DNA of 64,000 bases from a virus (Duplodnaviria; Caudoviricetes): the IMG/VR virus record IMGVR_UViG_3300033121_001133, positions 32,001 through 96,000 of that record; one strand, 5' to 3'. The notes beneath the pieces were generated by a model, which was not told the DNA's origin, ran no database searches, and was given only the letters and a program-made list of their open reading frames with translations. Below are positions 1,773-63,708 of the stretch, piece after piece (positions within the stretch are counted from its first letter, which is position 1; each line of letters opens with the position of its first letter). A program made the translations under genes and the position numbers.

Positions 1773-1796
1773 GAAAACAAGTAGTGATTGAGGAGA

Positions 1797-4700
1797 ATGA
1801 TAAATCAAATCAATAGTACTCTATCTAAAGTAGACTACATTCTTCACGTAGCAGATATCCATATTCGCAACTGGAAACGCCATCGGGAATATCAAGAGGT
1901 CTTCGACAAGCTATACGCTGCTGTCGACAGCCTACCGGCAAATAGCATTGTGACTGTGGGGGGTGATGTTGCTCACGCCAAGACCGATATGAGTCCTGAG
2001 CTGATTAGCATGATCACCGGTTTTCTCCAGCAGCTAGGAGATCGTAGACCGACGATTCTGATTGCTGGAAATCACGACACTAATCTGAACAACAATCAAC
2101 GGCTAGACGTACTAACTCCGATTGTAGAAGCATTGAAGCATCCTAATGTATTCTATCTTCGCAACTCGGGGACGTATCAAATCGGAGATCTTGACATCGG
2201 AGTGATGTCTCTGCTGGACGACAAGCAGACTTATCCGTTAATTAGCAGTGTTGATCCTACACGCTCTCGTCGACGGATTGCAATGTATCATGGTACTATT
2301 GCTAATAGTAAGGTTGATAGTGGGTTAAACATTGCTCATGGCTTGAACTGGGACGTGTTTGCTGGCTATGATATAGTGCTTCTAGGAGATATCCACAAGA
2401 GACAAGTCCAAAGTCAGTCAGATCCTCTGATGTTCTACCCAGGATCGCTAATCCAGCAGAATTTTGGGGAGTCCTTTGAGGGTCATGGGTTTGCGTTAGT
2501 TGACCTAACTCAACCTGATCCGAAGCTGAGTCTGCATGATATCCCCAACCAATACGGCTTCTTTACTATTGATGTTGTGGATGGAGTGGTACCTCCTAAC
2601 CTTCCTATCAACAGTAGGACTAATGTGCGGATTAAGTCTAAAGGGACTACTCCAAACCAGCTGAAAGAGATCTTACATAATCTGCGAAAGCAGTATGGGG
2701 TAGCTGAGGTGAGTATCAACAACTTGGACGGTTTGGGAAAGACTGGTATCTCCAATCAGGTAGGTGACGGTATTTACCAAGGGGATATTCGCAGTCCCCA
2801 AGTTCAAAGGCAGCTACTAGCTAACTACTACAAGGATAATCCCCTCTCAGACGAGTTAACTGATCAAATACTGCAGCTAAGCGATCAACTAAACTCTCAG
2901 CTGAATCACCCTGAAGTGGCGCGGGGTACAGTGTGGAAGCCTAGGAGATTTGAGTTCTCTAATATGTTCTCGTATGGTGAGAATAATGTGATTGACTTCA
3001 CTAAAATGAAGGGAACTTGTGGATTATTTGCACCTAACCACACTGGCAAATCCTCCATACTCGATGCTCTATGCTTTTGCTTGTTTGACTACACCTCCCG
3101 AGCTGGAAAGGCGGAGCATGTGCTGAATAATAAGAGCGACTGGTTTAGCTGCCAGTTCGAGTTTGAGTTGGAAGGCCTAGTATACACCATCAAAAAGCAA
3201 GCTTCCAGGTACAAGAAAGGACCACTAGCAGGCCGCCTCAGAGTTGATATTGATTTCTGGTATGTTAACGCTGAGGGAGCAACTGTATCTCTAAACGGTG
3301 AACAGAGAAGGGATACTGACAGGATCATTCAAAGCTATATTGGCACCTTCAATGACTTTGTTCTAACGGCATTGTCGATGCAAGGTAACAGCTCGAACTT
3401 TGTTGAGAAGACTCAGGGAGAACGAAAGGAGCTGCTTGCAAACTTCTTGGATCTAGCAACCTTTGATCAGCTGTTTGAACTAGCAAACAGAGAGGTTAAA
3501 ACCTTAGTAGTTCTACTGGAGAATCACCAGAGACAGGACTATTCATCTCAGATCATTGAACTTGAAGCTAAGTTAGATCAACTAGATAGCGATAGGACTA
3601 AGCAACAGGCTGATGTTGATGTTGCACAGGCCGTAGTTGATCAGCTTAATCAGAACCTAAACAATCTCAATAAGGAGCTACTACCTGTTAGGTATCGAGG
3701 ATCTTCAGTCGAAGATCTAAACGATGCAAAGCAGAGACTCAACAGCCAAATTACGGAACGGCAGAGTATGATTGAGAAGTTGCAACAGTTGCTACAAACT
3801 CAATCTTCGCTAGTGAGTCTTCAAGAGTCGGAGCTGGCAGGTGCCAAAAAAGCCTTCAATGTTGAAGCCTACACCAGGCTGGGACAGGACAGACAGCTTC
3901 TAGGATCAATGATGGATCGTCTTAGTAAGATTGACTTGATGATACCCACCATGCAGGCCAAGCTGGATATGCTCCATCAGCATCAATATGATCCAAACTG
4001 CAAGTATTGTGTTGCCAACGCGTTCGTTAAGGATGCGTTGGATACTAAAGCTGCGTTGGAATTAGATCAAGAGCAGAGGAAGCAGTTACTATCTGAGATA
4101 GAAAGTCTACGTCAGCAGATTGAACTTAATGCACCTCTGGAAGATCAGCTAAAGAGTATTCAAGATCTTGACGTGGACTTAACCACTAATCGAAAGCTAT
4201 TAGATGATACTAATAGTCAACTGCACATTGAGCGGCTTAAGCTAAGCTCACTCAATGACAATCTCAGAGAAGTGGGTTTGCAAATCGAGGCCTATCAAGC
4301 TGATAAACTGCAGCTTCTAGCCAATGAGCAGATCAACCTCAAGATCGAAGCAGAGAAGCTGCTTCTCCAGCAGGCTACAGCAAAGTTGACCCAAGCACAG
4401 CAGAAGTACAACAGAGCCTATGCCGACCTCCAGATTGGGATTCACAACCTTTCTAGTCTCAAAAAAGCCTCTAGTGAGGTAGATAATCTACTGAAGAAGC
4501 TAGAGTTATATGAGGCCTATTGTAAGGCCGTTTCCAAAGACGGTATTCCCTATGACCTGATTAGCAAGGCCGTACCCTACATTCAAAATTACGTCAATAA
4601 CATCCTGTCACAGATAGTAGAGTTTCAGGTGACTCTCGAGACCGACGGTAAGAATATCAACGCATTCATCGGATACGATGACCAGAAGTGGCCGCTGGAG

Positions 4701-4976
4701 CTGGCTTCTGGGATGGAGCGATTTGTGTCATCGCTGGCAATCAGAATTGCGCTGATCAAGACTACTAACCTACCTAAACCTGACTTCATTGCGATTGATG
4801 AGGGATTGGGAGTGTTGGACTCTTCAAATCTGAACTCCATGCATACCTTATTCACCTATATGAAGGATGTATTCAAGTTCAGCTTGATTATATCCCACAT
4901 CGATGTAGTACGAGATATGGTGGATAATATCCTAAACATCGATCGCAGGGAGGGTTTTAGCTGCATACGGGTGTGA
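1797..4976 (+). CDS. Fused Mre11/SbcD nuclease - Rad50/SbcC ATPase (gp47-gp46 fusion)
   Basis: Phosphoesterase motifs DIH, GGD, GNHD, YHG, GDIH. Then Walker A APNHTGKS, coiled coil with CKYC zinc hook, signature LASGMER, Walker B IAIDEG and H-loop ISH. Confidence 0.92.
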   Translation: MINQINSTLSKVDYILHVADIHIRNWKRHREYQEVFDKLYAAVDSLPANSIVTVGGDVAHAKTDMSPELISMITGFLQQLGDRRPTILIAGNHDTNLNNNQRLDVLTPIVEALKHPNVFYLRNSGTYQIGDLDIGVMSLLDDKQTYPLISSVDPTRSRRRIAMYHGTIANSKVDSGLNIAHGLNWDVFAGYDIVLLGDIHKRQVQSQSDPLMFYPGSLIQQNFGESFEGHGFALVDLTQPDPKLSLHDIPNQYGFFTIDVVDGVVPPNLPINSRTNVRIKSKGTTPNQLKEILHNLRKQYGVAEVSINNLDGLGKTGISNQVGDGIYQGDIRSPQVQRQLLANYYKDNPLSDELTDQILQLSDQLNSQLNHPEVARGTVWKPRRFEFSNMFSYGENNVIDFTKMKGTCGLFAPNHTGKSSILDALCFCLFDYTSRAGKAEHVLNNKSDWFSCQFEFELEGLVYTIKKQASRYKKGPLAGRLRVDIDFWYVNAEGATVSLNGEQRRDTDRIIQSYIGTFNDFVLTALSMQGNSSNFVEKTQGERKELLANFLDLATFDQLFELANREVKTLVVLLENHQRQDYSSQIIELEAKLDQLDSDRTKQQADVDVAQAVVDQLNQNLNNLNKELLPVRYRGSSVEDLNDAKQRLNSQITERQSMIEKLQQLLQTQSSLVSLQESELAGAKKAFNVEAYTRLGQDRQLLGSMMDRLSKIDLMIPTMQAKLDMLHQHQYDPNCKYCVANAFVKDALDTKAALELDQEQRKQLLSEIESLRQQIELNAPLEDQLKSIQDLDVDLTTNRKLLDDTNSQLHIERLKLSSLNDNLREVGLQIEAYQADKLQLLANEQINLKIEAEKLLLQQATAKLTQAQQKYNRAYADLQIGIHNLSSLKKASSEVDNLLKKLELYEAYCKAVSKDGIPYDLISKAVPYIQNYVNNILSQIVEFQVTLETDGKNINAFIGYDDQKWPLELASGMERFVSSLAIRIALIKTTNLPKPDFIAIDEGLGVLDSSNLNSMHTLFTYMKDVFKFSLIISHIDVVRDMVDNILNIDRREGFSCIRV

Positions 4977-13647: not shown

Positions 13648-14433
13648 ATGGATAACAAGAGACAAAAGGCTAAGCAGGCCAAGGATCAGCTGGTGCGAGA
13701 GCTTATTAGAAAGGAGATTGCCAAAATAACTCAGCAGCTAGGCGAAGGATTCTCTCGCATGGATTATGTTCAACACACCACTAAGCTACCATCTTCAGCA
13801 CGCGATCAAATAAAGCAGTTCATTAGTCGTTTGGGTCTAAAAGCTCTAAGGGGATACATAACTCCATCCGGCCGATCGCTCGTTCTAGAGTATGATTCCC
13901 CGCATGTTAGTATGATGGATAGACCTAATAAGGCTGATCGCGAGCGCATCATGCAGATGATTGCTCACGATGTACCTAAGCTGAAAGGTGCAGGAATTGG
14001 ATTTGCACAGAGTGGGCTTAGAGTGGTTTGTACTATCAAGGATACAGGCATTCAGCCCGTCAGTGAGGCATCCACCGACAGGCAGGGATCCATAACGGCA
14101 TCTACACCAAAGCAAGCTGCCAAGTCTGAACCAAGCTCAGCACCCAAGGTATCTGCTCCACCAGCAAAACCGCAACCAAAGGCTGCTCCTAAGCAGCAGC
14201 CTGAAAAGCCTGAGAACAAACCTCAACCTGATCAGCAAGAAAAGCCACAAGACACAGATGCTGAGTTGGCATCGATGACGGCCGGCTTTATTCAGAAGAT
14301 CAAGCATAGTGTGGGAAGTCCTACGCCAGAGAGTCTGACAACTATGATAACCTCACTAATCCAGGCTTGGGGACTTACCAGTGAAGATAAACTTGCAATA
14401 CTAAAAACAGTTCGCAACACCACTGTGCGATAA
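13648..14433 (+). CDS. Hypothetical protein with Pro/Lys/Gln linker, probable internal head protein
   Basis: LVRELIRKEI..LGE leader and a low-complexity linker. Confidence 0.55.
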   Translation: MDNKRQKAKQAKDQLVRELIRKEIAKITQQLGEGFSRMDYVQHTTKLPSSARDQIKQFISRLGLKALRGYITPSGRSLVLEYDSPHVSMMDRPNKADRERIMQMIAHDVPKLKGAGIGFAQSGLRVVCTIKDTGIQPVSEASTDRQGSITASTPKQAAKSEPSSAPKVSAPPAKPQPKAAPKQQPEKPENKPQPDQQEKPQDTDAELASMTAGFIQKIKHSVGSPTPESLTTMITSLIQAWGLTSEDKLAILKTVRNTTVR

Positions 14434-14438
14434 GCTCT

Positions 14439-14801
14439 ATGGAAAAGGGCAAGGTTGATATTGTTACGTTGGTTCTTGTCTGCTTGGTTATTCTGCTAGG
14501 CGGTTACATTATTAGCTCTAGAAGTCATGTTGACTACAATCAATCCAACCACAGACTGGACAGCTTGAACCAAGTAATGTCTAGACTGCAGCGTGAGCAG
14601 CTAGAAAGCGATAGCATACTACGTATGTATGAGATGCGATATCAAGCTATTGAGCTAGAAAAGCAATCTCTAAGTAAAGAACTCGAAGCTACACGACAAT
14701 TCTATGGTAAAGCTATTAGGGATATTGGTAAGCTGTCTACTGCTCAACTTGACAGCTTTTTCACAGACCGGTACGATCGTACTAGATTACAGCACCGCTA
14801 A
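14439..14801 (+). CDS. Membrane-anchored coiled-coil protein (i-spanin-like)
   Basis: N-terminal TM helix followed by a coiled coil. Overlaps the next gene by 98 nt. Confidence 0.55.
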   Translation: MEKGKVDIVTLVLVCLVILLGGYIISSRSHVDYNQSNHRLDSLNQVMSRLQREQLESDSILRMYEMRYQAIELEKQSLSKELEATRQFYGKAIRDIGKLSTAQLDSFFTDRYDRTRLQHR

Positions 14802-15105
14802 ACAGGTCGCAGAAGATTTGCTTAGAGGAGATTCTGCTGCAGCGGAATTGAAAGTTGCTAACAGGACTTTAACGGTACTAGAGACTCAACTAGCCGTTCG
14901 TAATAGTGAGATGGCTGAGATGAGGCGTAAGCAGGACAACTATCTCACTCAATTAGGCACTCTAAACGAAAAGGAGTCAATCTACCTTGGGCTGAATGAT
15001 CAGCTAACAAAGGACAATCGAAGATTGAAGGTTGAGGTCAAGATACTAGGAGCAACGGCTTCAGTTAGCATGGTAATCGCAACTGTTGCATTATTACTAC
15101 GCTAA
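14704..15105 (+). CDS. Exported coiled-coil protein with C-terminal hydrophobic tail (spanin-like)
   Basis: Signal peptide (TAFS|Q, or an LVSC lipobox), coiled coil and C-terminal TM. Confidence 0.5.
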   Translation: MVKLLGILVSCLLLNLTAFSQTGTIVLDYSTAKQVAEDLLRGDSAAAELKVANRTLTVLETQLAVRNSEMAEMRRKQDNYLTQLGTLNEKESIYLGLNDQLTKDNRRLKVEVKILGATASVSMVIATVALLLR

Positions 15106-15106
15106 C

Positions 15107-15952
15107 ATGAGCAATCCCAGCCTCAAGGAGCTAATCAAAAAGGAGTACGTTAAATGTGCTACGTCTCCTGCGTACTTCATGAAGAAGTATTGTATGATTC
15201 AGCATCCAACTAAAGGGAAGATCCCATTCCACCTCTATCAATTCCAGGAGGACACTCTACAAGATTTTACTGAGCATGATAGACTAGTGATTCTGAAGTC
15301 TAGACAGCTAGGAATCTCCACGCTGATCGCTGGATACGCTTTATGGTTGATTTTGTTCCACAGCGATAAGAACTGCCTGGTTGTAGCTATCGATCAAGCA
15401 ACCTCAAAGAACCTAGTAACTAAGGTTCGAGTAATGTATGATTGTCTGCCTAGCTGGCTGCGAATCAAGTTTGTTGAAAGGAACAAGCTATCAATGAGGC
15501 TGTCAAACGGATCACAAATCAAGGCAGTTGCTAGCACAGGTACCTCAGGTCGATCAGAAGCGCTATCTCTAGTAATCATCGATGAAGCAGCGTTCGTAGA
15601 AGGAGCGGAAGATTTGTGGGCATCATTGCAGCAGACTCTATCTACTGGGGGTCAAGGTATTATCCTATCAACTCCTAACGGTACCGGTAACTTCTTCCAC
15701 AAGATGTGGATTAAGGCAGAGAACAATGAGTTCAGTGTGCCTTACAAAGCAATTAGACTACCGTGGACCGTTCACCCAGAACGCGATGCTGCATGGAGAA
15801 TGAGACAGGATCAAGAGCTTGGTCCTCGACTTGCCGCTCAGGAGTGTGACTGCCTCTGGGGTCAGAGCACCATTATCGTACAGGATGAGGACGGAAGAGA
15901 GTTTGAAATCTCTCTAGAAGATCTATACGATCATTTACAAGAGGGCGACTAG
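15107..15952 (+). CDS. terL: Terminase large subunit N-terminal (ATPase) half + split intein N-fragment
   Basis: KSRQLGIST Walker A, IIDEAAF Walker B and STPNG. Ends AQECD|CLWGQSTII...LEDLY. Confidence 0.92.
   Translation: MSNPSLKELIKKEYVKCATSPAYFMKKYCMIQHPTKGKIPFHLYQFQEDTLQDFTEHDRLVILKSRQLGISTLIAGYALWLILFHSDKNCLVVAIDQATSKNLVTKVRVMYDCLPSWLRIKFVERNKLSMRLSNGSQIKAVASTGTSGRSEALSLVIIDEAAFVEGAEDLWASLQQTLSTGGQGIILSTPNGTGNFFHKMWIKAENNEFSVPYKAIRLPWTVHPERDAAWRMRQDQELGPRLAAQECDCLWGQSTIIVQDEDGREFEISLEDLYDHLQEGD
15851..15949 (+). mobile_element. Split intein N-fragment (33 aa)
   Basis: Cys1 block A CLWGQSTIIV, then a stop codon after 33 aa. Confidence 0.85.
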
Positions 15953-15969
15953 TTATAATAAACGCACTC

Positions 15970-16713
15970 ATGTATCCAACTACCTCCAGTATGAGGACCA
16001 AGCAAACTTGGGATAAGGCCAAATCAGGCCTGCGTGAGTTGGAAACTTACACGCTAGCGGACACCATCAAGATGCTTAACCGGGATGATTTACACCTTAA
16101 GCTGCGAGGGAAGGCTAAGAATAGGACACTACTCAAGACCAATCCGATATTGTATAAATCCATACTTGAACACACAAGTCAGTTGGAAAGCTTGTTTCGT
16201 ACACAAGGCGCTTACAGATCAAACTACAATCTATCGCATAGGATCAGATTCCTAGTGGAGCGAAACTGCAATATAGACTCTTTAGTCTGTAAGTGTGGTA
16301 GAAAGTATACCTGGACATCGTATTGCAGACATTGCCCCGACTACAAGCGAAATCAGTTAGGTAAACCTCACACCGAGGAGACTAAGAAGAAGATGAGGAT
16401 ATCTACCCTGCGGTATCTGGCTGGTTTGAAGGGGCAGGTGATTCCACGGTATAATAAAAACAGTATCGCCCTCATAGAGGCGTATGGCCAAAAGCACGGC
16501 TATGTTTTTATGCACGCAGAAAATGGAGGTGAGTATTTTGTCAGGGAGTTGGGGTATTTTTTGGATGGCTATGATCCTATTCACAATGTAGCCATTGAGG
16601 TAGATGAAAGAAGTCACTTCCATAAGGGTGTGCTTTGTGATAGAGACATTCAAAGGCAGAAGCAGATAGAGGCCTTATTAGGATGCACTTTTGTAAGATT
16701 GAAGTATGATTGA
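15970..16713 (+). CDS. Free-standing homing endonuclease (NUMOD3 + Vsr-like/PD-(D/E)xK domain)
   Basis: CKC..CRHC, NUMOD3-like GKPHTEETKKKMR and nuclease core YFLDGYD..NVAIEVDERSH. Lies between the two intein halves. Confidence 0.78.
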   Translation: MYPTTSSMRTKQTWDKAKSGLRELETYTLADTIKMLNRDDLHLKLRGKAKNRTLLKTNPILYKSILEHTSQLESLFRTQGAYRSNYNLSHRIRFLVERNCNIDSLVCKCGRKYTWTSYCRHCPDYKRNQLGKPHTEETKKKMRISTLRYLAGLKGQVIPRYNKNSIALIEAYGQKHGYVFMHAENGGEYFVRELGYFLDGYDPIHNVAIEVDERSHFHKGVLCDRDIQRQKQIEALLGCTFVRLKYD

Positions 16714-17029
16714 GTATCGTAAAAATACCAAGTACTTGGTAAAGACCCCAACAGGCTTCAAGAGCTTTACTGGAGTGAGGCGCACCACTAAGTCCTCTGT
16801 CTTGGAGATACTATTCAAGGACAACACAAAACTTCAATGCTCCCTAGATCACAGGTTTATTATTGGAGGAGAGGAAATCTTAGCGAAAGACCTAACAGTG
16901 GGAAATCAGCTAACCTCGGACAAAACCATCATAGCTATAACAGAGCTAGACAATTCTAGGTTTCTGTATGACTTGGTGGGTGTAGACGATGGTAGTTTGT
17001 ACATAGCAGATGGTATTGTATCACACAAC
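16706..17029 (+). mobile_element. Split intein C-fragment (108 aa)
   Basis: TPTGF, block B CSLDH, block F LYDLVGV, block G IVSHN followed by Cys+1. Confidence 0.87.
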
Positions 17030-17863
17030 TGTGACTTCTCCACCTCTGGTAACACAGTAGTTTCTCCAACTATTATAACCGAGTACGTAAACAAGTATCA
17101 AAGGGACCCTATTGAGAAGACCGGCTTCGATTCCAATCTATGGATCTGGGAACATCCCGACTACAGCAGAGATTACATCGTGTCTGCAGACGTGGCGCGT
17201 GGAGATGGCACTGACTATTCTGCATTTCACGTGATTGATGTGGAGACAGCGCGGCAGGTTGCCTCATATAGAGGACAGTTAACTACCAAGGATTTTGGCA
17301 ACATGCTAGTTGCAATAGCAACTCAGTATAATGACGCACTGCTTTCGATTGAAAACGCTAATGTAGGTTGGGCAGTACTTCAACAGGCGATTGATCGAGG
17401 CTATCGTAATCTGTATTACACTCAAAGGGACGATGCTCTTGATGCAGATCGATACCTTCTTAGAGGCAGCGACTTGACCAGTAAGTCTAATATGGTGGCT
17501 GGATTCACCATGTCTCATAAAGTTAGGCCTCTGGTGATTAGTAGGCTAGAGCTATACATGAGAGAGTTCAGTTGTGAAATTAGGGACAAGAGGCTCTTAG
17601 ATGAGCTATACACTTTTGTCTATCACAACGGACGTCCTGAAGCAGCACAGGGATACAATGACGATATGGTTATGAGTTTTGGTCAGGGGTTGTGGGTAAG
17701 AGACACAGCAATCAAGCTCCGTCAAGCGGGAATGGAGCTTAATAGGTTGGCAATTTCAAACATTCGCTCTAGTACTGGAGTCTATAAGGCAGCTACTCCA
17801 AACAATCCATGGGAAATGCACACTCCCAGCGGTCAAAGGGAGGATCTTAATTGGTTGCTCTGA
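16706..17863 (+). CDS. terL: Split intein C-fragment + terminase large subunit nuclease half
   Basis: Intein ends SHN|C. Then CDFSTSG, ADVARGDGTDYS, IENAN and NDDMVM nuclease motifs. Confidence 0.92.
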   Translation: MIEYRKNTKYLVKTPTGFKSFTGVRRTTKSSVLEILFKDNTKLQCSLDHRFIIGGEEILAKDLTVGNQLTSDKTIIAITELDNSRFLYDLVGVDDGSLYIADGIVSHNCDFSTSGNTVVSPTIITEYVNKYQRDPIEKTGFDSNLWIWEHPDYSRDYIVSADVARGDGTDYSAFHVIDVETARQVASYRGQLTTKDFGNMLVAIATQYNDALLSIENANVGWAVLQQAIDRGYRNLYYTQRDDALDADRYLLRGSDLTSKSNMVAGFTMSHKVRPLVISRLELYMREFSCEIRDKRLLDELYTFVYHNGRPEAAQGYNDDMVMSFGQGLWVRDTAIKLRQAGMELNRLAISNIRSSTGVYKAATPNNPWEMHTPSGQREDLNWLL

Positions 17864-17887
17864 CTATCTATAACAAATAGAGTTTGA

Positions 17888-19723
17888 ATGGCGGATTCTT
17901 CCCTTTTTAGTAGGCTGAAGCGACTCTTCAGTACGGATGTGATTATCCGCAACGTGGGCGGTAATCAGCTTAAGGTTATAGACACTGCTCGAATCCAGTC
18001 TGACGGTAACATCAACACCAACAGACGAGTCGATCGGTTTTCCAGAATGTTCTCAACCAACTCTTCTGGATTCTCCCACTACGCAGGACAGCTTCAGCTA
18101 TACACTCGACTAGAGCTATTCCGAGACTATGAGGCAATGGACTCTGACAGCATTATAGCCTCAGCACTGGACATATATGCCGATGAGTGTACCGTTCAAA
18201 ATGAATTTGGGGATGTGATTGCAATCTCCTCTACTAACGAGAAGGTACACAAGCTGCTACATAATCTATTCTACGATGTGTTAAACATCGAGTTTAATCT
18301 ATGGCCATGGGTGCGCAACACTCTAAAGTACGGGGATTTTTTCCTCAAGTTGAATGTAGCTGAGAAGTTCGGGGTGATCGGGGTAGATCCCATTTCAGCC
18401 TATGAGATGATCCGAGAGGAGAATTACGATCCAGAAAATCCCCAGAAGGTTAGATTCCGTCGAGATCCAACAGCCTTATCTTCCAAATACTCTGCTCAGT
18501 CTGGCGCCCGCGAAGAGGAGGTGTATGACAACTATGAGATTGCACACTTCCGCCTTCTAACCGATACCAACTTTTTACCCTACGGTCGTTCGTTGGTAGA
18601 ACCGGCTCGTAAGGTGTGGAAGCAGTTGACTCTGATGGAGGATGCAATGTTGATTCATAGAATCATGCGTGCTCCAGATAAGAGGATGTTCAAGATTGAC
18701 ATCGGTAACATTCCTCCTAATGAGATTGATGCTTTCATGGAAGCGACAATCACTAAAATGAAGAAGGTACCTTACGTTGATCCCCAGACTGGAGACTACA
18801 ACCTAAAGTACAACATGCAGAACATCCTGGAAGACTTCTACTTCCCGGTCCGCGGTAGTGAAAGTGCAACCACCGTAGAAAACATCTCTGGACTACAATC
18901 AGACGCAATCCAGGATATAGAGTATCTGCGTAATAGGATGCTGGCATCGCTCAAGATTCCAAAAGCCTACATTGGATATGAGGAAGATACCAGCGGTAAG
19001 AGCACTCTAGCCTCCCAGGATTTCCGCTTCGCCCGCACTATTGAGAGAATTCAACGAATCATAGTGTCTGAGCTTCACAAGATTGCAATCGTGCACTTAT
19101 ATGCACAGGGATGCTCAGATGAGGAGTTGGTTGATTTCTCCCTACAGCTAACGGCCCCCTCTACTGTGTATGAAAAGGAGAAGATAGAGTTGTGGCAGAG
19201 CAAGGCAACCTTGGCTGGAGATCTTCTAGAGAAGAAGCTGTGCAGTAGGTACTGGGTGTACAAGGAGGTGTTCAATATGCATGAGGAAGAGTACCTCGAG
19301 GAGCAGAATAGGATCATCATTGATGCCAAGGAGCAGTTCAGAATTGAGCAAATCAAAACAGAGGGCAATGATCCTGTTAAGACAGGACAGTCGTTTGGTA
19401 CACCTCACGATTTAGCTACCCTATACAAGGGAGGAGGAGGGTTGCCAAGAGGATATGATGAGCGAACAGCTGAGATGCCTGAGGGGGGGTGGCCCGGTGC
19501 AGGGCGACCCGAGGAGCCAGGGACTTATGGGACCCACAAACACCCACTAGGATGGGATCCTCTCGGAAATAAGGGTAACAGGAAGGTCTATGAGCAAGCT
19601 ACGGCTGCGAAGTATGGTGGCCTGATTCGAGAGATTAAGAAGAAGGCGGTTACTGAGACGTTTGATTTACGCCCAGAGGAGCCTGAGCCTCCTATGCTCG
19701 ACGAGAACAATCTTTTACCTTAA
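17888..19723 (+). CDS. gp20: Portal protein (T4 gp20-like)
   Basis: MEDAMLIHRIMRAP, FKIDIGNIP, EDFYFPVRG. Follows terL. Confidence 0.93.
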   Translation: MADSSLFSRLKRLFSTDVIIRNVGGNQLKVIDTARIQSDGNINTNRRVDRFSRMFSTNSSGFSHYAGQLQLYTRLELFRDYEAMDSDSIIASALDIYADECTVQNEFGDVIAISSTNEKVHKLLHNLFYDVLNIEFNLWPWVRNTLKYGDFFLKLNVAEKFGVIGVDPISAYEMIREENYDPENPQKVRFRRDPTALSSKYSAQSGAREEEVYDNYEIAHFRLLTDTNFLPYGRSLVEPARKVWKQLTLMEDAMLIHRIMRAPDKRMFKIDIGNIPPNEIDAFMEATITKMKKVPYVDPQTGDYNLKYNMQNILEDFYFPVRGSESATTVENISGLQSDAIQDIEYLRNRMLASLKIPKAYIGYEEDTSGKSTLASQDFRFARTIERIQRIIVSELHKIAIVHLYAQGCSDEELVDFSLQLTAPSTVYEKEKIELWQSKATLAGDLLEKKLCSRYWVYKEVFNMHEEEYLEEQNRIIIDAKEQFRIEQIKTEGNDPVKTGQSFGTPHDLATLYKGGGGLPRGYDERTAEMPEGGWPGAGRPEEPGTYGTHKHPLGWDPLGNKGNRKVYEQATAAKYGGLIREIKKKAVTETFDLRPEEPEPPMLDENNLLP

Positions 19724-25853: not shown

Positions 25854-26342
25854 ATGTCTGAGGGATCCGACAGATCTCAGGTTAGTCTGGGTTTAACTTA
25901 CTTGGGATCACTGGTTGCTGTAGTTACCTTCAATCCACAGCGACGATCTCTAGGCCATAAAAACAGCACTCCAGGCACTTGGGAGTTAGTTAGATACGCT
26001 ACCAGCAGGCAGGTAGTGGGTGGTGCTAGCAAGCTGATTAGCGCTTTTGTAAAGAAGTACCGGCCTAATCAGATAGTATCGTATGCCGATCGGAGATACA
26101 CAAATCCTAGTAGTAATTTATACAGAGCTTGTGGGTTTCAATTGATAGGGGAGACTCCACCCAGCTACTGGTACATGAGAAACTACAAGGAGAGGTTGCA
26201 TCGGTATGGATTTACTAAAGGGCGCTTGGTGTCTAAATTTGGAGCAAGTCCCAATCTAACCGAGTGGGAGAGCATGCAGTTATTAGGTTATGATAGAGTG
26301 TGGGATTGTGGCTGCTTTAAGTTCAGCAAGACCTATGTATAG
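25854..26342 (+). CDS. GNAT/Mom-like domain as found in Hef-like phage endonuclease genes, possibly N-truncated
   Basis: WELVRYAT...GGASKL...SYADRRY...LYRACGF...YDRVWDCG. Confidence 0.6.
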   Translation: MSEGSDRSQVSLGLTYLGSLVAVVTFNPQRRSLGHKNSTPGTWELVRYATSRQVVGGASKLISAFVKKYRPNQIVSYADRRYTNPSSNLYRACGFQLIGETPPSYWYMRNYKERLHRYGFTKGRLVSKFGASPNLTEWESMQLLGYDRVWDCGCFKFSKTYV

Positions 26343-26378: not shown

Positions 26379-28133
26379 ATGGAGCACAGTGGGAAGGTCA
26401 GTAACCTGGAGAAGAGGAAGCCAAAAGGGGATATTAGATTCAAGGTTGAGTTGAATGAGGAGCAAAAGGAGGCCAAACGAATTGTATATGACAATCCAGT
26501 AGTGTTATTAAAGGGTGCAGCCGGGTCAGGCAAGGCCCAGCCTCTGGACAGTCCGGTCTTAACTCCAACAGGGTATAGACCGATGGGTAGTCTGAGAGTA
26601 GGAGATGAGGTTTGTACGCCTGAGGGTGGTAGAGCAACCATTCTCGGCGTATTCCCCCAAGGGCAGAAGGATGTTTATAGAATAACCTTCAGCGACGGTT
26701 CGACCACTCTCTGCTGTAAAGAGCATCTGTGGAATGTACAGCATAGAAGGGATGAACATACTCCTAGTAGGCATAAGGGTTACAAAAACAGTAACCATGA
26801 TAGATGGATCACTAGGTCTGTTGAGCAGCTATTGGAGCAGCCCCTTCAAGATAGTCAAGGTCTGAATAAGTGGTTTATACCCATATCACATCCTGTGCAG
26901 TTTGATTGTCCGTGGATTGAAAATAAGATTGATCCCTATTTGTTGGGGTGCTTACTTGGAGATGGTCATCTAGGTAAGAATTCTGTGGTAATGACTAGCG
27001 CTGATCTTGAGGTGTTGGAGGGGGTAGAACGCGCTGCTGATAAGGTTGGAGTGCTTGTCAGGCATACCAACTACGGATATGACTATAGACTCGTTACAGA
27101 GAAGGGTCAGTCAAACCCTCTACTCACGCATATGCGGGAATTGGGATTAACAGGCACTCGCTCTCAAAACAAGTTCATCCCAAAAAACTACCTACTCCAG
27201 AGTGTTGAGGATAGGCTATCACTACTTCAAGGCCTACTTGATACAGACGGTGGATTGGAGAGCTCCTCTGTGTGTTTTAATACTACTTCCAAGCAGCTAG
27301 CTGAGGATGTTGAGTTTTTGGTACACTCACTTGGTGGAACTACCAATCGCAGACTGAGGGCGAGCAAACTATATGGAAAGGAGACAGGTACAACCTGCTA
27401 CACCATCACTGTCAAGCTTCCAGGTCAGTTTGCAAATCAATACTTTAGGTTGAGTCGCAAGCAGCGTGCAATTGGAGTGAATAAAAAACAGCCCTCGAGG
27501 TCAATTAAAAGCATCGAGCTGCTTGGTAAGCAAGACTGCCAATGCATCTACGTGGACAGCGACAGTCATCTATATCTAACAGATAGTATGATTGTCACTC
27601 ATAATACCCTTGCAGCCTGCCAAGTTGCCTTGGATATGTTCTTCAAGCGGCAGATTGAGAAGATTGTGATCACAAGGCCTACAGTTTCTCGGGAGGAAAT
27701 AGGCTTCTTGCCCGGGGACATGAAGGAGAAGATGGATCCATGGTTAGCACCAATCTATGCCAACCTATACATGCTCTACAGTAGAGATGGGATCGATAAG
27801 ATGGTAGCGGAGGGAGAGATTGAGATTGTTCCTTTTGCGTTTATGAGAGGTCGAACTTTCCCTAATACGTTCGTGTTGGTAGACGAGTGTCAAAACATCA
27901 CTCACAGTCAGACAGAGATGATGTTAGGGCGATTAGGTAAGGGAGGAAAGATGGTATTCTGTGGAGACCTAGCCCAGATAGACTTGAAGACCAAGAAGGA
28001 TTCCGGGATTGGATTCTTTGTTAGGTTGGAGGAGAGAGTGCCAGGTGTACGGATTGTCACATTGAAGACCAACCATAGGCACGAAGTAGTCGAATCAATC
28101 CTACAAGTATACGCAGAGTATCGAGATATCTAG
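26379..28133 (+). CDS. phoH: PhoH-like ATPase containing an intein
   Basis: GAAGSGK|intein|TL, then GFLPGDMKEK, FMRGRTF, DECQN and GDLAQID. Confidence 0.93.
   Translation: MEHSGKVSNLEKRKPKGDIRFKVELNEEQKEAKRIVYDNPVVLLKGAAGSGKAQPLDSPVLTPTGYRPMGSLRVGDEVCTPEGGRATILGVFPQGQKDVYRITFSDGSTTLCCKEHLWNVQHRRDEHTPSRHKGYKNSNHDRWITRSVEQLLEQPLQDSQGLNKWFIPISHPVQFDCPWIENKIDPYLLGCLLGDGHLGKNSVVMTSADLEVLEGVERAADKVGVLVRHTNYGYDYRLVTEKGQSNPLLTHMRELGLTGTRSQNKFIPKNYLLQSVEDRLSLLQGLLDTDGGLESSSVCFNTTSKQLAEDVEFLVHSLGGTTNRRLRASKLYGKETGTTCYTITVKLPGQFANQYFRLSRKQRAIGVNKKQPSRSIKSIELLGKQDCQCIYVDSDSHLYLTDSMIVTHNTLAACQVALDMFFKRQIEKIVITRPTVSREEIGFLPGDMKEKMDPWLAPIYANLYMLYSRDGIDKMVAEGEIEIVPFAFMRGRTFPNTFVLVDECQNITHSQTEMMLGRLGKGGKMVFCGDLAQIDLKTKKDSGIGFFVRLEERVPGVRIVTLKTNHRHEVVESILQVYAEYRDI
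26535..27605 (+). mobile_element. Class 3 (Ala1) intein with LAGLIDADG endonuclease, 357 aa
   Basis: Starts AQPLDS. Has EHLW, LLGCLLGDG, LLQGLLDTDG, CQCI and VTHN|T. Inserted in the P-loop. Confidence 0.9.
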
Positions 28134-61849: not shown

Positions 61850-62608
61850 ATGCCCCATACACTAATACAACAATGCCCCACCTTTAGTAAAAAGGTATCA
61901 GGTGAGGATAAGCTAGCAATAGCTGAAATGTTCTGTGATACCATTCAAGGAGAGGGTGTCCATGCCGGGTTGCCAGCAACCTTTGTCAGGCTACAAGGAT
62001 GCACTTTGAAGTGTGTCTGGTGCGATACACTGACAGTGTGGCCGTACGGCAATGAGTACTCGTTTGATGAGATCTTTGCATTGTGGGAGGGAGTGGGGTT
62101 GATCAAGAGGCTGGATGAAGGTCAGCACCTAATCCTAACTGGGGGTTCACCACTCAAACAGGAGCAGCGACTGATTCAGTTCATCAACGCGTTCATCAAG
62201 AGATATCACTTCAAGCCTTATATTGAGGTAGAGAATGAAGCTGTGTTAATGCCATCAGCGGAGCTTGAGAAACTTGTGGATTGGTGGAACAACTCACCGA
62301 AGCTGTCTAACTCGGGAATGAAATCCAGGGTTAGGATCAAGCCTGAGGTGATAGATTACATGGCTGCACTACCTAATAGCTCGTTCAAGTTCGTAGTGTC
62401 AGCTCCTCAGGACTGGGATGAGATTGTTAAGGATTACATTGAGCCCTTCTCAATTAGCAAGGATCAGATCATCCTTATGCCTGAGGGTCAGACTCAGGCT
62501 GAGCTTCAGGTTAGTAGACCAGTAGCAGCTCAGATGGCAATTGAGCATCAGGTTAGATTCACTGACCGTCTACACGTGACCATTTGGGATAAAAAGACAG
62601 GCGTCTGA
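61850..62608 (+). CDS. queE: 7-carboxy-7-deazaguanine synthase (radical SAM)
   Basis: EMF.TIQGEG, FVRLQGCTLKCVWCDT, LTGG.P, SPK, RLH. Confidence 0.9.
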   Translation: MPHTLIQQCPTFSKKVSGEDKLAIAEMFCDTIQGEGVHAGLPATFVRLQGCTLKCVWCDTLTVWPYGNEYSFDEIFALWEGVGLIKRLDEGQHLILTGGSPLKQEQRLIQFINAFIKRYHFKPYIEVENEAVLMPSAELEKLVDWWNNSPKLSNSGMKSRVRIKPEVIDYMAALPNSSFKFVVSAPQDWDEIVKDYIEPFSISKDQIILMPEGQTQAELQVSRPVAAQMAIEHQVRFTDRLHVTIWDKKTGV

Positions 62609-63234: not shown

Positions 63235-63708
63235 ATGAGATACATAAGTACCAAAATCTTTGATAACTATTCGGTGGCGATTAGACAGTGGAAGGCACAA
63301 CACTCTCACTGCTCGAAGCTGCATGGCTATGCGTTTAAGTTCAAGGTCTGGTTTGCTTCGGTGGAGCCTGAAATTGACAAGCAGCTGGATGACATGAACT
63401 GGGTTCAGGACTTTGGGGGCTTCAAGACTGCGCCTCAAGGCAACGGTCTAAAAGACTGGATGGACCACATGTGGGATCACACTACTCTAATCCAGAAGGA
63501 CGATCCCTATGCTGACATCTTTGTGCAGATGGAACAGATGGGGTTGTGTAAGCTTCACTTACTAGACAAGATGGGAGCTGAGAGCTGTGCTAAGTTGGTG
63601 TTTGACAAGTTTAACGACGTCTTATCAAAGACTGATGCTGGTCGCTGCAAGGTGATTAAGGTGGAGTGCTTTGAGAATGACAACAACAGCTCAATCTATG
63701 AAGAGTAA
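63235..63708 (+). CDS. queD: 6-carboxytetrahydropterin synthase
   Basis: HCSKLHGY, WVQDFG, WDH, GAE, VECFE. Confidence 0.85.
   Translation: MRYISTKIFDNYSVAIRQWKAQHSHCSKLHGYAFKFKVWFASVEPEIDKQLDDMNWVQDFGGFKTAPQGNGLKDWMDHMWDHTTLIQKDDPYADIFVQMEQMGLCKLHLLDKMGAESCAKLVFDKFNDVLSKTDAGRCKVIKVECFENDNNSSIYEE

What the first reader, a model, noticed from the sequence alone, without database searches (positions are those of the whole stretch)
15107..17863. Fractured terminase: atypically split intein (33 aa + 108 aa) with a free-standing endonuclease between the halves
Seen: TerL-N ends AQECD|CLWGQSTIIVQDEDGREFEISLEDLYDHLQEGD*, a 33 aa acidic fragment at 15851-15949. After a 247 aa NUMOD3/Vsr-like ORF, a second gene begins with a Lys/Arg-rich 108 aa intein remainder ending SHN|C (16706-17029). 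Splicing would restore AQECD-CDFSTSG and join the ATPase to the nuclease. A late-type TAGTTATA overlaps the TerL-N stop, so the insert may carry its own promoter. Known: the split point right after block A is that of atypically split TerL inteins (AceL-TerL, GOS-TerL), whose short N-fragments are valued for protein labelling. Inference: DNA packaging depends on protein trans-splicing, and this is probably a new usable variant.
Basis: partly seen in the sequence, partly recalled or inferred. Interest (0 to 1): 0.85.

Follow-up and report, generated by a model that had tools for sequence, protein, structure and literature searches.

The report
Split-intein terminase with homing endonuclease
This phage's only DNA-packaging motor gene is cut in two by a selfish nuclease gene and should be rejoined at the protein level by a two-piece intein; both the layout and this intein family are already described, so it is a clean new example of a known kind.

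Summary
terL is encoded as TerL-N + 33-aa IntN (15107-15952), a 247-aa endonuclease gene (15970-16713), and 108-aa IntC + TerL-C (16706-17863). IntC matches the crystallised consensus atypical TerL intein CatC (PDB 6DSL_B, E 1.9e-16), and IntN matches CatN (E 0.026). All class-1 catalytic residues are present and invariant in relatives. 28 of 80 related viral loci carry an uninterrupted terL reading AQECD|CDFS, which is exactly the predicted spliced junction. The inserted ORF has a Vsr-like nuclease fold (Z 7.1 to I-Bth0305I, 6.5 to Vsr), but its sequence similarity to I-Bth0305I is not significant. No group I intron was found.

Relatives show every stage of the cycle: empty site, intact nuclease gene, nuclease remnants, nuclease deleted, and contiguous intein. 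In metagenome contigs of three studies the cassette is identical to the window while flanking terL differs by 5-13%, which suggests recent homing.

The "own promoter" idea is partly supported. TA[CT]TTAT is a genuine upstream box in this phage, but the copy here is a one-mismatch variant created by a Tyr-to-stop change.

Fractured genes (including a terminase) and atypically split TerL inteins (AceL, GOS, Cat) are published. This scan also already holds 93 notes matching these search terms, from other genomes. Verdict: new member of a known kind, low to moderate interest.

The parts
15107..15850 (+). TerL N-extein (248 aa; ATPase part with Walker A SRQLGIST and Walker B LVIIDE), ending AQECD
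   Evidence: Pfam Terminase_6N E 2.5e-11 over residues 62-253. PHROG terminase large subunit E 3.3e-39. 57-82% identical to N-exteins of IMG/VR relatives. The Walker motif labels are read by eye from the sequence.
15851..15949 (+). IntN, 33 aa, net charge -9, starting with the Cys1 nucleophile (CLWG...)
   Evidence: Aligns to 6DSL_A CatN residues 2-32, E 0.026. Cys1 and Gly4 are invariant in 25 aligned IntN sequences (A2). IntN lengths in relatives are 30-38 aa.
15950..15956 (+). TAG stop of TerL-N inside TAGTTAT, a one-mismatch variant of the phage's upstream box TA[CT]TTAT, 20 nt before the endonuclease ATG
   Evidence: In L001 and L010 the homologous DNA reads GAC TAT TTA TTR TAA, that is Tyr-Leu-Leu-stop with a canonical TATTTAT.
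15970..16713 (+). Free-standing putative homing endonuclease, 247 aa: N-terminal helical region, a CxC...CxxC cysteine cluster (putative zinc site) with a NUMOD3-like stretch, and a C-terminal Vsr-like nuclease (about 160-247)
   Evidence: AlphaFold model has mean pLDDT 92.7. VIA-align Z is 10.6, 10.3 and 9.0 to mitoribosomal protein chains (two T. gondii, one Tetrahymena), 7.3 to the FASTKD4 RAP module, 7.1 to I-Bth0305I (3r3p), and 6.5 to Vsr (1cw0). 90 homologous clusters were found. D199, E210, E213 and D226 are invariant; D212 and H216 are nearly invariant (A1). The cysteine cluster is read by eye.
16706..16713 (+). 8-nt overlap of the endonuclease stop with the IntC start (ATGATTGA)
   Evidence: 11 of 13 distinct endonuclease-bearing relatives overlap by 1-14 nt, 7 of them by 4 nt. 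Dassa 2009 reports overlaps of 6-69 bp in 15 loci.
16706..17029 (+). IntC, 108 aa, containing block B (SLDH, His49), block F Asp89 and the terminal His107-Asn108
   Evidence: 6DSL_B CatC E 1.9e-16, query 5-109 to chain 11-113. H49, D89, H107, N108 and C+1 are invariant in 23 sequences (A3).
17030..17863 (+). TerL C-extein (277 aa + stop; end of the ATPase domain plus the nuclease domain), starting with the Cys+1 nucleophile (CDFSTSG)
   Evidence: PHROG terminase hits over residues 108-327 are collinear with the N part. 49.5% identical to Flavobacterium phage immuto TerL over residues 108-385 only.

Best explanation
This is a fractured terL gene of a myovirus whose major capsid protein is of the T4 Gp23 type.

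A mobile cassette sits inside the conserved AQECD|CDF motif near the end of the TerL ATPase domain. The cassette consists of a class-1 mini-intein broken about 33 residues in by a free-standing Vsr-like homing-endonuclease gene.

Three proteins are made from one strand: TerL-N-IntN (281 aa), the endonuclease (247 aa), and IntC-TerL-C (385 aa). The last probably starts by translational coupling at the ATGATTGA overlap.

Proposed steps (all inferred from family chemistry):
1. The acidic IntN docks onto IntC, whose first 31 residues are basic, and completes the HINT fold.
2. Cys1 makes the thioester.
3. Cys+1 takes over the N-extein.
4. Asn108 cyclises.
5. A 525-aa TerL reading ...AQECD-CDFSTSG... 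is released.

The endonuclease is inferred to cut intein-less terL alleles of co-infecting relatives, so that repair copies the whole cassette plus short flanks.

Shown here: gene anatomy, homology, conserved catalytic residues, empty-site alleles, and an identical cassette in diverged backgrounds. Inferred: splicing, cleavage, and coupling.
For: Anatomy.

Intein homology and residues:
- IntC to 6DSL_B CatC, E 1.9e-16. IntN to 6DSL_A CatN, E 0.026.
- Cys1, His49 (block B), Asp89 (block F), His107, Asn108 and Cys+1 are invariant in 25 IntN and 23 IntC sequences.

Related IMG/VR loci (n = 80):
- 28 are intein-less and read AQECD|CDFS at exactly this point.
- 41 are split: 25 with a full endonuclease, 3 with remnants, 13 with none.
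- 3 carry a contiguous 148-aa intein.
- 6 are incomplete.
- 2 are odd. One of these, L001, also has IntN + endonuclease + IntC.

Other support:
- There is no second TerL, intein or endonuclease copy in the 137,379-bp genome.
- Endonuclease: model pLDDT 92.7; Vsr/RAP/I-Bth0305I-like fold; conserved acidic and His residues; 90 homologous clusters.

Mobility:
- In runs X2, X3 and X4 (three studies), contigs with 0 differences cover the cassette. In X2 they tile 15722-17277. The 40 best-supported differences listed (66 more are not shown) include none in X2 between 15415 and 17461.
- Flanking terL contigs differ. X2: 25 of 535 and 39 of 629. X4: 13 of 195 and 19 of 151. X3: 30 of 407.
- On a C-extein tree the window is sister to intein-less L002/L003 (100/98). 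It sits inside a 21-row clade with 18 intein-less rows.
Against: - No experiment: neither splicing nor cleavage was observed.
- The IntN match to CatN is weak (E 0.026).
- Sequence-level similarity of the endonuclease to I-Bth0305I is not significant, so its family assignment rests on fold and motif order.
- The mobility evidence comes from short contigs that are not physically linked across the breakpoints. Flank contigs could belong to co-occurring phages.
- The patchy tree distribution could reflect losses rather than gains.
Confidence: 0.88

Rival explanations
1. The interruption is removed at the RNA level (a group I intron carrying the endonuclease ORF) or bypassed in translation. That would give a contiguous cis-splicing intein rather than trans-splicing.
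For: IntN and IntC are in the same frame in the window (16706-15851 = 855 = 3 x 285). Vsr-like endonucleases do occur in group I introns (Dassa 2009; I-Bth0305I). A contiguous 148-aa intein exists in L030-L032.
Against: - The Rfam E-value scan of 15500-17300 gave 0 matches up to E 10.
- Three in-frame stops (TAG, TAA, TAA) follow IntN.
- The frame relation is not conserved in relatives. L010 and L033 have the halves in different frames (coordinates).
- Relatives that lost the endonuclease still keep a stop and a new ATG only 4-21 nt apart, which leaves no room for an intron.
- No predicted stable or conserved structure flanks the ORF.
Confidence: 0.03
2. The gene is broken and not repaired by splicing. 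Either the halves work as a non-covalent two-chain terminase held together by the intein halves, or the record is a defective phage.
For: Fragmented phage enzymes that assemble without splicing are known (the Aeh1 NrdA case is cited in Dassa 2009; PMC3045599 was seen as a search listing only). No splicing data exist for this intein.
Against: Every catalytic residue needed only for splicing chemistry (Cys1, His49, Asp89, His107, Asn108, Cys+1) is invariant across sequences that are only 36-71% identical. That pattern implies selection for splicing. Homologues AceL-TerL, GOS-TerL and Cat splice in vitro according to the review PMC11766414 (passages). The genome is otherwise a complete-looking 137-kb myovirus with portal, protease, capsid and tail genes.
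Confidence: 0.06
3. The intein is functional, but the middle ORF is no longer (or never was) a homing nuclease. It could be, for example, a DNA-binding regulator or a decaying passenger, and the cassette is now inherited only vertically.
For: Profile comparisons to I-Bth0305I are not significant. Only sub-threshold Pfam hits were found for this protein. Relatives show frequent decay and deletion of the ORF: 3 remnants and 13 lost among 41 split loci.
Against: The ORF is full length, and the putative active-site residues are invariant or nearly so in 45 homologues. The model is confident with a Vsr-like fold. The cassette is identical in diverged terL backgrounds in three studies. Its distribution on the extein tree is patchy.
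Confidence: 0.12

Closest known systems
Fractured genes (Dassa, London, Stoddard, Schueler-Furman, Pietrokovski 2009, NAR 37:2560, PMC2677866; passages read)
   Same: Two consecutive same-strand genes carry split-intein halves with a free-standing endonuclease gene between them. They occur mainly in phages, and one described locus is a gp17-type terminase. The endonuclease 3' end overlaps the IntC start. Promoter-like boxes lie upstream of the endonuclease. Loss of the endonuclease leaves a split intein.
   Different: Here the locus sits in a complete 137-kb genome, not a read assembly. No upstream RNA hairpin was detectable, whereas Dassa found hairpins in 15 of 16 loci. I could not see which endonuclease type their terminase locus carries, because figures are not held.
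AceL-TerL, GOS-TerL and the consensus Cat intein (PDB 6DSL); properties taken from the review PMC11766414 (passages). The primary papers were not held.
   Same: The host gene is terL. The split is atypical, with a short IntN (25, 37, 30 aa) and a long IntC (104-115 aa); here they are 33 and 108 aa. Cys1/Cys+1 as in AceL and Cat. IntC is clearly homologous to CatC (E 1.9e-16).
   Different: The sequence is distinct from Cat (63.5 bits over about 105 residues). IntN carries a dispensable-looking acidic tail (QEGD), cut short by a Tyr-to-stop change relative to L001 and L010. Identity of the native insertion site with AceL and GOS could not be checked here.
I-Bth0305I / EDxHD (Vsr-like) homing endonucleases (Taylor et al. 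2011, PMC3239194; passages; PDB 3r3p)
   Same: Two-part protein with an N-terminal DNA-binding region and a C-terminal Vsr-like nuclease fold (Z 7.1, rmsd 4.0, 74 aligned). The motif order is the same: D...IEV[DN]...H...D. I-Bth0305I D196 aligns to D199 here.
   Different: No significant sequence or profile similarity was found (0.9 bits). The N-terminal region shows a different motif (NUMOD3-like and a CxC...CxxC cysteine cluster, against NUMOD2/HTH). It is free-standing inside an intein, not intron-encoded.
Canonical naturally split inteins such as gp41-1 (PDB 6QAZ) and DnaE
   Same: HINT fold, class-1 chemistry, and charge complementarity between the halves. There is weak sequence similarity (E 0.04 and 0.065).
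   Different: Those are split at the usual endonuclease-insertion site between blocks B and F, giving a long IntN and a short IntC. Here block B lies in IntC.

Membership tests
Class 1 intein (HINT domain) | Cys/Ser at position 1 and Cys/Ser/Thr at +1 | tested here: met
   Cys1 (CLWG) and Cys+1 (CDF). Both are invariant in A2 (25 sequences) and A3 (23 sequences).
Class 1 intein (HINT domain) | Block B TxxH His, block F Asp, and penultimate His with terminal Asn | tested here: met
   SLDH (His49), LYD (Asp89) and SHN (His107, Asn108), all invariant columns in A3. The block names are my assignment by eye.
Class 1 intein (HINT domain) | In-frame insertion whose removal restores a collinear host protein | tested here: met
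   28 of 80 related loci have N-extein and C-extein directly abutting as AQECD|CDFS.
Class 1 intein (HINT domain) | Protein splicing activity | not testable with these tools
Atypically split TerL inteins (AceL-TerL, GOS-TerL, Cat) | Sequence homology of both halves to a characterised member | tested here: met
   IntC to CatC, E 1.9e-16, nearly end to end. IntN to CatN, E 0.026, residues 2-32 of 33 (weak on its own).
Atypically split TerL inteins (AceL-TerL, GOS-TerL, Cat) | Split between block A and block B: short IntN (about 25-37 aa) and long IntC (about 104-115 aa) | tested here: met
   33 aa and 108 aa. Block B lies in IntC. Relatives have 30-38 and 108-115 aa. Reference lengths come from PMC11766414.
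Atypically split TerL inteins (AceL-TerL, GOS-TerL, Cat) | Same insertion point in TerL as AceL and GOS | not tested
   Native extein sequences of AceL-TerL and GOS-TerL were not available. The primary papers are not held.
Fractured gene (Dassa 2009) | Host gene in two adjacent same-strand ORFs, each ending or starting with an intein half, with a free-standing endonuclease ORF between | tested here: met
EDxHD / Vsr-like homing endonucleases (I-Bth0305I) | C-terminal Vsr-like nuclease fold | tested here: met
   VIA-align: Z 7.1 to 3r3p_A (74 aligned, rmsd 4.0), Z 6.5 to 1cw0_A, Z 6.0 to 1vsr, Z 7.3 to the FASTKD4 RAP module, and Z 9.0-10.6 to mitoribosomal protein chains, all over model residues about 135-247. 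Foldseek to 3r3p_A: probability 0.94, E 0.12. These Z values are in a range where the tool warns that common folds also score.
EDxHD / Vsr-like homing endonucleases (I-Bth0305I) | Conserved E, D, H, D active-site residues | tested here: inconclusive
   D199, E210, E213 and D226 are invariant; D212 and H216 are at least 90% conserved in 45 sequences. A filter-free HMM alignment pairs D199 with I-Bth0305I D196 and IEV with IEV, but scores only 0.9 bits and places the His one residue off.
EDxHD / Vsr-like homing endonucleases (I-Bth0305I) | Detectable sequence homology to family members | tested here: not met
   The A1 profile found no 3r3p hit in the PDB at E up to 10. It found no match in the whole 0305phi8-36 record. 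hhalign probability was 1.8%. Indirect links only: MTES_1575 in 6 of 45 members and DUF559 in 1 of 45.
EDxHD / Vsr-like homing endonucleases (I-Bth0305I) | N-terminal NUMOD-type DNA-binding motifs | tested here: inconclusive
   NUMOD3 is at E 0.033, below the cut-off, for this protein. It is significant in 6 of 45 family members, best 8.5e-15.
EDxHD / Vsr-like homing endonucleases (I-Bth0305I) | Site-specific cleavage of the uninterrupted allele | not testable with these tools
   Needs a cleavage assay.

The most novel reading that the evidence does not exclude
The cassette may be an actively homing unit that carries its own control region: a promoter-like box followed (or preceded) by a copy of the endonuclease's own empty target site.

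Evidence in relatives: in 12 of 27 distinct split loci, a copy of that locus's uninterrupted QECD|CD junction lies between the IntN stop and the endonuclease start, with at most 5 mismatches in 18 bases. Only 18 of 4915 background windows score that well.

Possible roles for such a target mimic:
- an operator through which the endonuclease represses its own gene, as I recall (not read here) was reported for I-TevI;
- the pseudo-target inside the intein that let the endonuclease invade there, which would explain why this intein family is split at an atypical position.

In the window itself the copy is degenerate (QEGD; 8 of 18 mismatches, not above background).
Probability: 0.15. Interest if true: 0.5.

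Novelty: new member of a known kind. Interest (0 to 1): 0.25.

Why it matters
The finding confirms that the only terminase of a complete 137-kb myovirus must be assembled from two polypeptides. It also places a new, intact member in the small, biotechnologically used family of atypically split TerL inteins, whose short IntN is accessible by peptide synthesis. The runs that hold the cassette are labelled riverine, soil and wastewater metagenomes. The related loci also give an unusually complete natural series of the homing cycle at one site: empty, invaded, decaying, endonuclease-free split, and contiguous. That series could serve as a study set for how split inteins arise. None of this changes current understanding, because the layout, the intein family and the endonuclease type are all published.

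Tried and rejected
- Complex prediction for IntC + IntN (alignments A3, A2) was not available.
- Group I intron or other RNA: the Rfam E-value scan of 15500-17300 gave 0 matches.
- Hairpin upstream of the endonuclease, as in Dassa 2009: the MFE z-score was -0.87, and four aligned loci gave no consensus structure. The region around the IntC start had z +0.29.
- Sigma-70-like promoters and terminators over 14400-18400 were at chance level: 9 against 7.9, and 4 against 2.4.
- The exact TAGTTATA was not enriched.
- Sequence link of the endonuclease to solved structures: the single sequence gave only an E 0.92 lysozyme hit, and the profile gave only GAL4-like cysteine-cluster noise.
- There was no match in Bacillus phage 0305phi8-36, and hhalign to I-Bth0305I gave probability 1.8%.
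- No PHROG family matched the endonuclease.
- Cultured phages: no near-identical DNA. No full-length endonuclease homologue was found; 10 records match the C-terminal half at most.
- Papers not held: Bachmann & Mootz 2015 (PMC4661395) and Stevens et al. 2018 (DOI look-up). Thiel et al. 2014 was not looked up. What I say about them comes from the review PMC11766414 or from recall.
- Reads: no contig joint skipping the endonuclease or the whole intein was reported. The only joint (17238 to 17348 in X2, side 26) is probably foreign.
- RNA run X20 gave one 195-nt contig at 17233-17427, which shows nothing about transcription.
- Stretches without contig cover in X3 and X4 are not interpreted.
- The distance-to-start column is not specific, because internal starts also count. 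I rely on the called-gene upstream counts instead.
Full report
**The observation**

- TerL-N runs 15107-15952 and ends AQECD|CLWGQSTIIVQDEDGREFEISLEDLYDHLQEGD*.
- The last 33 residues (15851-15949) have net charge -9.
- A 247-aa ORF follows at 15970-16713.
- A 385-aa ORF at 16706-17863 begins with 108 residues ending SHN, followed by CDFSTSG.
- The second ATG overlaps the middle ORF's stop by 8 nt (ATGATTGA).
- IntC as a whole is neutral. Only its first 31 residues are basic (8 K/R, 1 E).
- Pfam and PHROGs identify the outer parts as the N and C portions of a large terminase. The profile coordinates are collinear: Terminase_6N E 2.5e-11; phrog_2 positions 260-458 and then 451-589.

**The intein**

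- IntC matches chain B of PDB 6DSL, 'Consensus engineered intein CatC', at E 1.9e-16 over residues 5-109.
- The last 38 residues of TerL-N match chain A, CatN, over 31 of its 33 residues at E 0.026.
- According to the review PMC11766414 (passages read), Cat is the consensus of the atypically split AceL-TerL and GOS-TerL inteins. Their fragment lengths are IntN 25, 37 and 30 aa and IntC 104-115 aa.
- Both halves align end to end with the two Cat chains, so the split point is the same atypical one. Block B (SLDH) lies in IntC, not IntN.
- In alignments of 25 IntN and 23 IntC sequences from related loci, several residues are invariant although overall identity is only 36-71%: Cys1, His49, Asp89, His107, Asn108 and Cys+1.

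**Relatives**

A scan of IMG/VR with the 385-aa protein returned 114 related stretches, of which the best 80 were kept. I mapped the five parts on each locus.

| State | Loci (of 80) |
|---|---|
| No intein; N- and C-exteins abut as AQECD\|CDFS, the predicted spliced junction | 28 |
| Split intein | 41 |
| Contiguous 148-aa intein (L030-L032) | 3 |
| Locus ends before the N-extein (incomplete) | 6 |
| Odd (L001 has IntN + endonuclease + IntC; L070 is aberrant) | 2 |

The 41 split loci break down as follows:
- 25 have a full-length homologue of the middle ORF;
- 3 have only its remnants (L051, L064, L071);
- 13 have none, with gaps of 4-118 nt between the stop and the new ATG.

Several endonuclease-free split alleles keep the first and last bases of the endonuclease gene: L063 against L053/L054, L048, and L075 against L076. 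They therefore look like internal deletions. L027 (9-nt gap) and the contiguous intein of L031 are collinear codon for codon and differ by a stop codon. I cannot tell which state is ancestral. A 672-aa TerL with the contiguous intein also exists in the protein collection on 12 contigs (P0113).

**The middle ORF**

- It has 90 homologous clusters (E <= 0.001; best 81% identity). Nearly all are unnamed or 'hypothetical', and 84 of 90 have no precomputed Pfam domain.
- It has no PHROG family.
- In a 45-sequence alignment, G195, Y196, D199, Y201, E210, E213, D226, R229, L237 and C239 are invariant. D212 and H216 are nearly so.
- The AlphaFold model is confident (pLDDT 92.7).
- Its C-terminal 90-110 residues align structurally to several entries:
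  - mitoribosomal protein chains (two T. gondii, one Tetrahymena), Z 10.6, 10.3 and 9.0;
  - the FASTKD4 RAP module, Z 7.3;
  - the I-Bth0305I catalytic domain, Z 7.1, rmsd 4.0, 74 aligned;
  - a DUF559-like protein, Z 6.7;
  - Vsr, Z 6.5 and 6.0.
- Foldseek gives 3r3p probability 0.94 but E 0.12.
- Sequence methods do not connect it to I-Bth0305I:
  - the profile found no PDB hit to 3r3p;
  - it found no hit in the whole 0305phi8-36 genome;
  - hhalign probability was 1.8%;
  - a filter-free domain HMM scored 0.9 bits, although it pairs D199 with the experimentally essential D196 and IEV with IEV (D196A/H213A from PMC3239194).
- Across the 45 members, NUMOD3 is significant in 6, MTES_1575 in 6 and DUF559 in 1.
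- I therefore call it a Vsr-like, probably EDxHD-type, homing endonuclease on fold and motif order, not on sequence.

**RNA-level alternatives**

- The Rfam scan of 15500-17300 found nothing up to E 10.
- Three in-frame stops follow IntN.
- The in-frame relation of the two halves in the window is not conserved in L010 or L033.
- Relatives without the endonuclease still have stop and start codons a few bases apart.
- No stable or conserved structure flanks the ORF.

**Is the gene needed?**

The genome is a single 137,379-bp contig of a myovirus. It encodes portal, prohead protease, a Gp23-type capsid protein, sheath, tube and baseplate. tblastn of all five parts against it finds no second TerL, intein or endonuclease. 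The nearest cultured TerLs are Flavobacterium phage immuto (49.5%, extein only) and Microcystis phage Mel-JY01.

**Mobility**

Contigs of four public runs were laid on 14900-18100.
- X2 (riverine):
  - Five contigs with 0 differences tile 15722-17277.
  - Among the 40 best-supported differences listed (66 more are not shown), none in X2 falls between 15415 and 17461.
  - The flanking contigs differ by 25 of 535 (15175-15709) and 39 of 629 (17261-17889).
- X4 (wastewater): 15359-15553 and 15563-15713 differ by 13 of 195 and 19 of 151. Contigs from 15728 onward have 1 or 0 differences.
- X3 (soil): cassette contigs have 0 differences, and 17690-18096 has 30 of 407.

These are three studies other than the best holder. 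The pattern is what homing with short co-conversion tracts would give. However, the contigs are short and not linked across the breakpoints, so this is suggestive, not proof.

A maximum-likelihood tree of the C-extein (56 rows) places the window as sister to intein-less L002/L003 (100/98). It sits inside a well-supported 21-row clade with 18 intein-less rows. The two other cassette-bearing rows (L001, L010) are placed apart. This means either several gains or several losses.

**The promoter claim**

- The exact 8-mer is not enriched, and sigma-70-type sites are at chance.
- However, TACTTAT and TATTTAT are about 30-fold enriched in the 50 nt upstream of called ORFs: 11 and 10 upstream regions against 0.37 and 0.35 expected, with 132 of 135 ORFs on the + strand.
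- In the window, 14 of 16 such boxes lie 11-36 nt before a called start.
- The G variant TAGTTAT occurs 6 times on the + strand. Only the copy at 15950 is within 50 nt of a called start.
- In L001 and L010 the homologous DNA is GAC TAT TTA TTR TAA. That is a canonical box which also encodes Tyr-Leu-Leu-stop.
- The window's TAG is therefore a Tyr-to-stop change that shortened IntN by three codons and weakened the box.
- Six of 25 distinct split relatives have the canonical box within -15 to +45 of the IntN stop, against 0.036 expected per such interval.
- Dassa et al. already reported late-promoter boxes upstream of such endonucleases.
- The idea is plausible but unproven, and this particular copy is degenerate.

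**A family feature I cannot explain**

In 12 of 27 distinct split loci, an 18-base copy of the locus's own uninterrupted junction (QECD|CD) lies between the IntN stop and the endonuclease start, with at most 5 mismatches. It persists in endonuclease-deleted derivatives. Only 18 of 4915 background windows score as well. The window's counterpart, the IntN tail QEGD, has 8 mismatches and is not above background. It may be an operator, a pseudo-target that guided the invasion, or a relic.

**Comparison with the literature**

- Dassa et al. 2009 (PMC2677866) described 26 fractured loci, including one gp17-like terminase. They also described the Vsr-like endonuclease family, the endonuclease/IntC overlaps, and a gene-breaking model with later endonuclease loss.
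- Atypically split TerL inteins are characterised and engineered tools.
- A word search of this scan's earlier notes returned 93 findings holding the search terms, in at least 80 genomes. The 8 shown are fractured terminases, and at least two of them describe atypically split inteins with a Vsr-like endonuclease.

This instance is therefore a well-supported new member of a known kind.

Noticed in passing
window 26379-28130 (+): The PhoH-like ATPase gene carries a second, conventional contiguous intein with a nested LAGLIDADG endonuclease. PhoH profile positions resume at residue 409, LAGLIDADG_3 covers 280-329, and Hom_end also hits. By eye the intein starts with Ala right after the Walker A GSGK and ends THN|T. 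Trp follows the block B His, and a Cys lies in block F. This is the pattern I recall for class 3 inteins.
   Followed up: partly
window 25854-26339 (+): A free-standing 162-aa ORF lies between the major capsid gene and phoH. It matches PHROG homing/HNH endonuclease families (E 1.1e-43 and 3.9e-39) but no Pfam family.
   Followed up: no
window 4981, 9276, 11244, 12937, 19742, 22967, 28144, 36698, 37022, 39461, 41212, 50835, 55915, 59067 (+), and elsewhere in the genome: A recurrent, strand-specific box TA[CT]TTAT lies 11-36 nt upstream of ORF starts. It is about 30-fold enriched upstream of genes of both the structural and the replication modules, and is probably the phage's promoter element.
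   Followed up: partly
L035, L039, L048, L049, L053, L054, L058, L063, L064, L068, L072, L027 (about 5-40 nt after, or just before, the IntN stop): A copy of the uninterrupted terL junction (QECD|CD, consensus CAAGAATGTGAT TGYGAC) sits at the IntN/endonuclease boundary in 12 of 27 distinct split loci, against 18 of 4915 background windows. Its function is unknown.
   Followed up: partly
L030-L032 versus L027-L029: The contiguous 148-aa intein and a split version with a 9-nt gap are collinear codon for codon. They differ by a stop codon (TTA against TAA) and an ATG three codons later. At this site a single substitution separates cis- from trans-splicing forms.
   Followed up: partly
L063 versus L053/L054; L075, L077-L079 versus L076, L080: These are near-identical intein backgrounds with and without the endonuclease gene. 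The endonuclease-free forms keep its first and/or last bases, so they are internal deletions.
   Followed up: partly
window 1788-4973 (+): A single 1062-aa ORF combines SbcD-like (residues 14-281) and SbcC-like (386-1058) PHROG matches, apparently a fused SbcCD nuclease.
   Followed up: no
window 61850-62605 and 63235-63705 (+): QueE-like and QueD-like genes are present. They suggest a 7-deazaguanine DNA-modification pathway in this phage.
   Followed up: no
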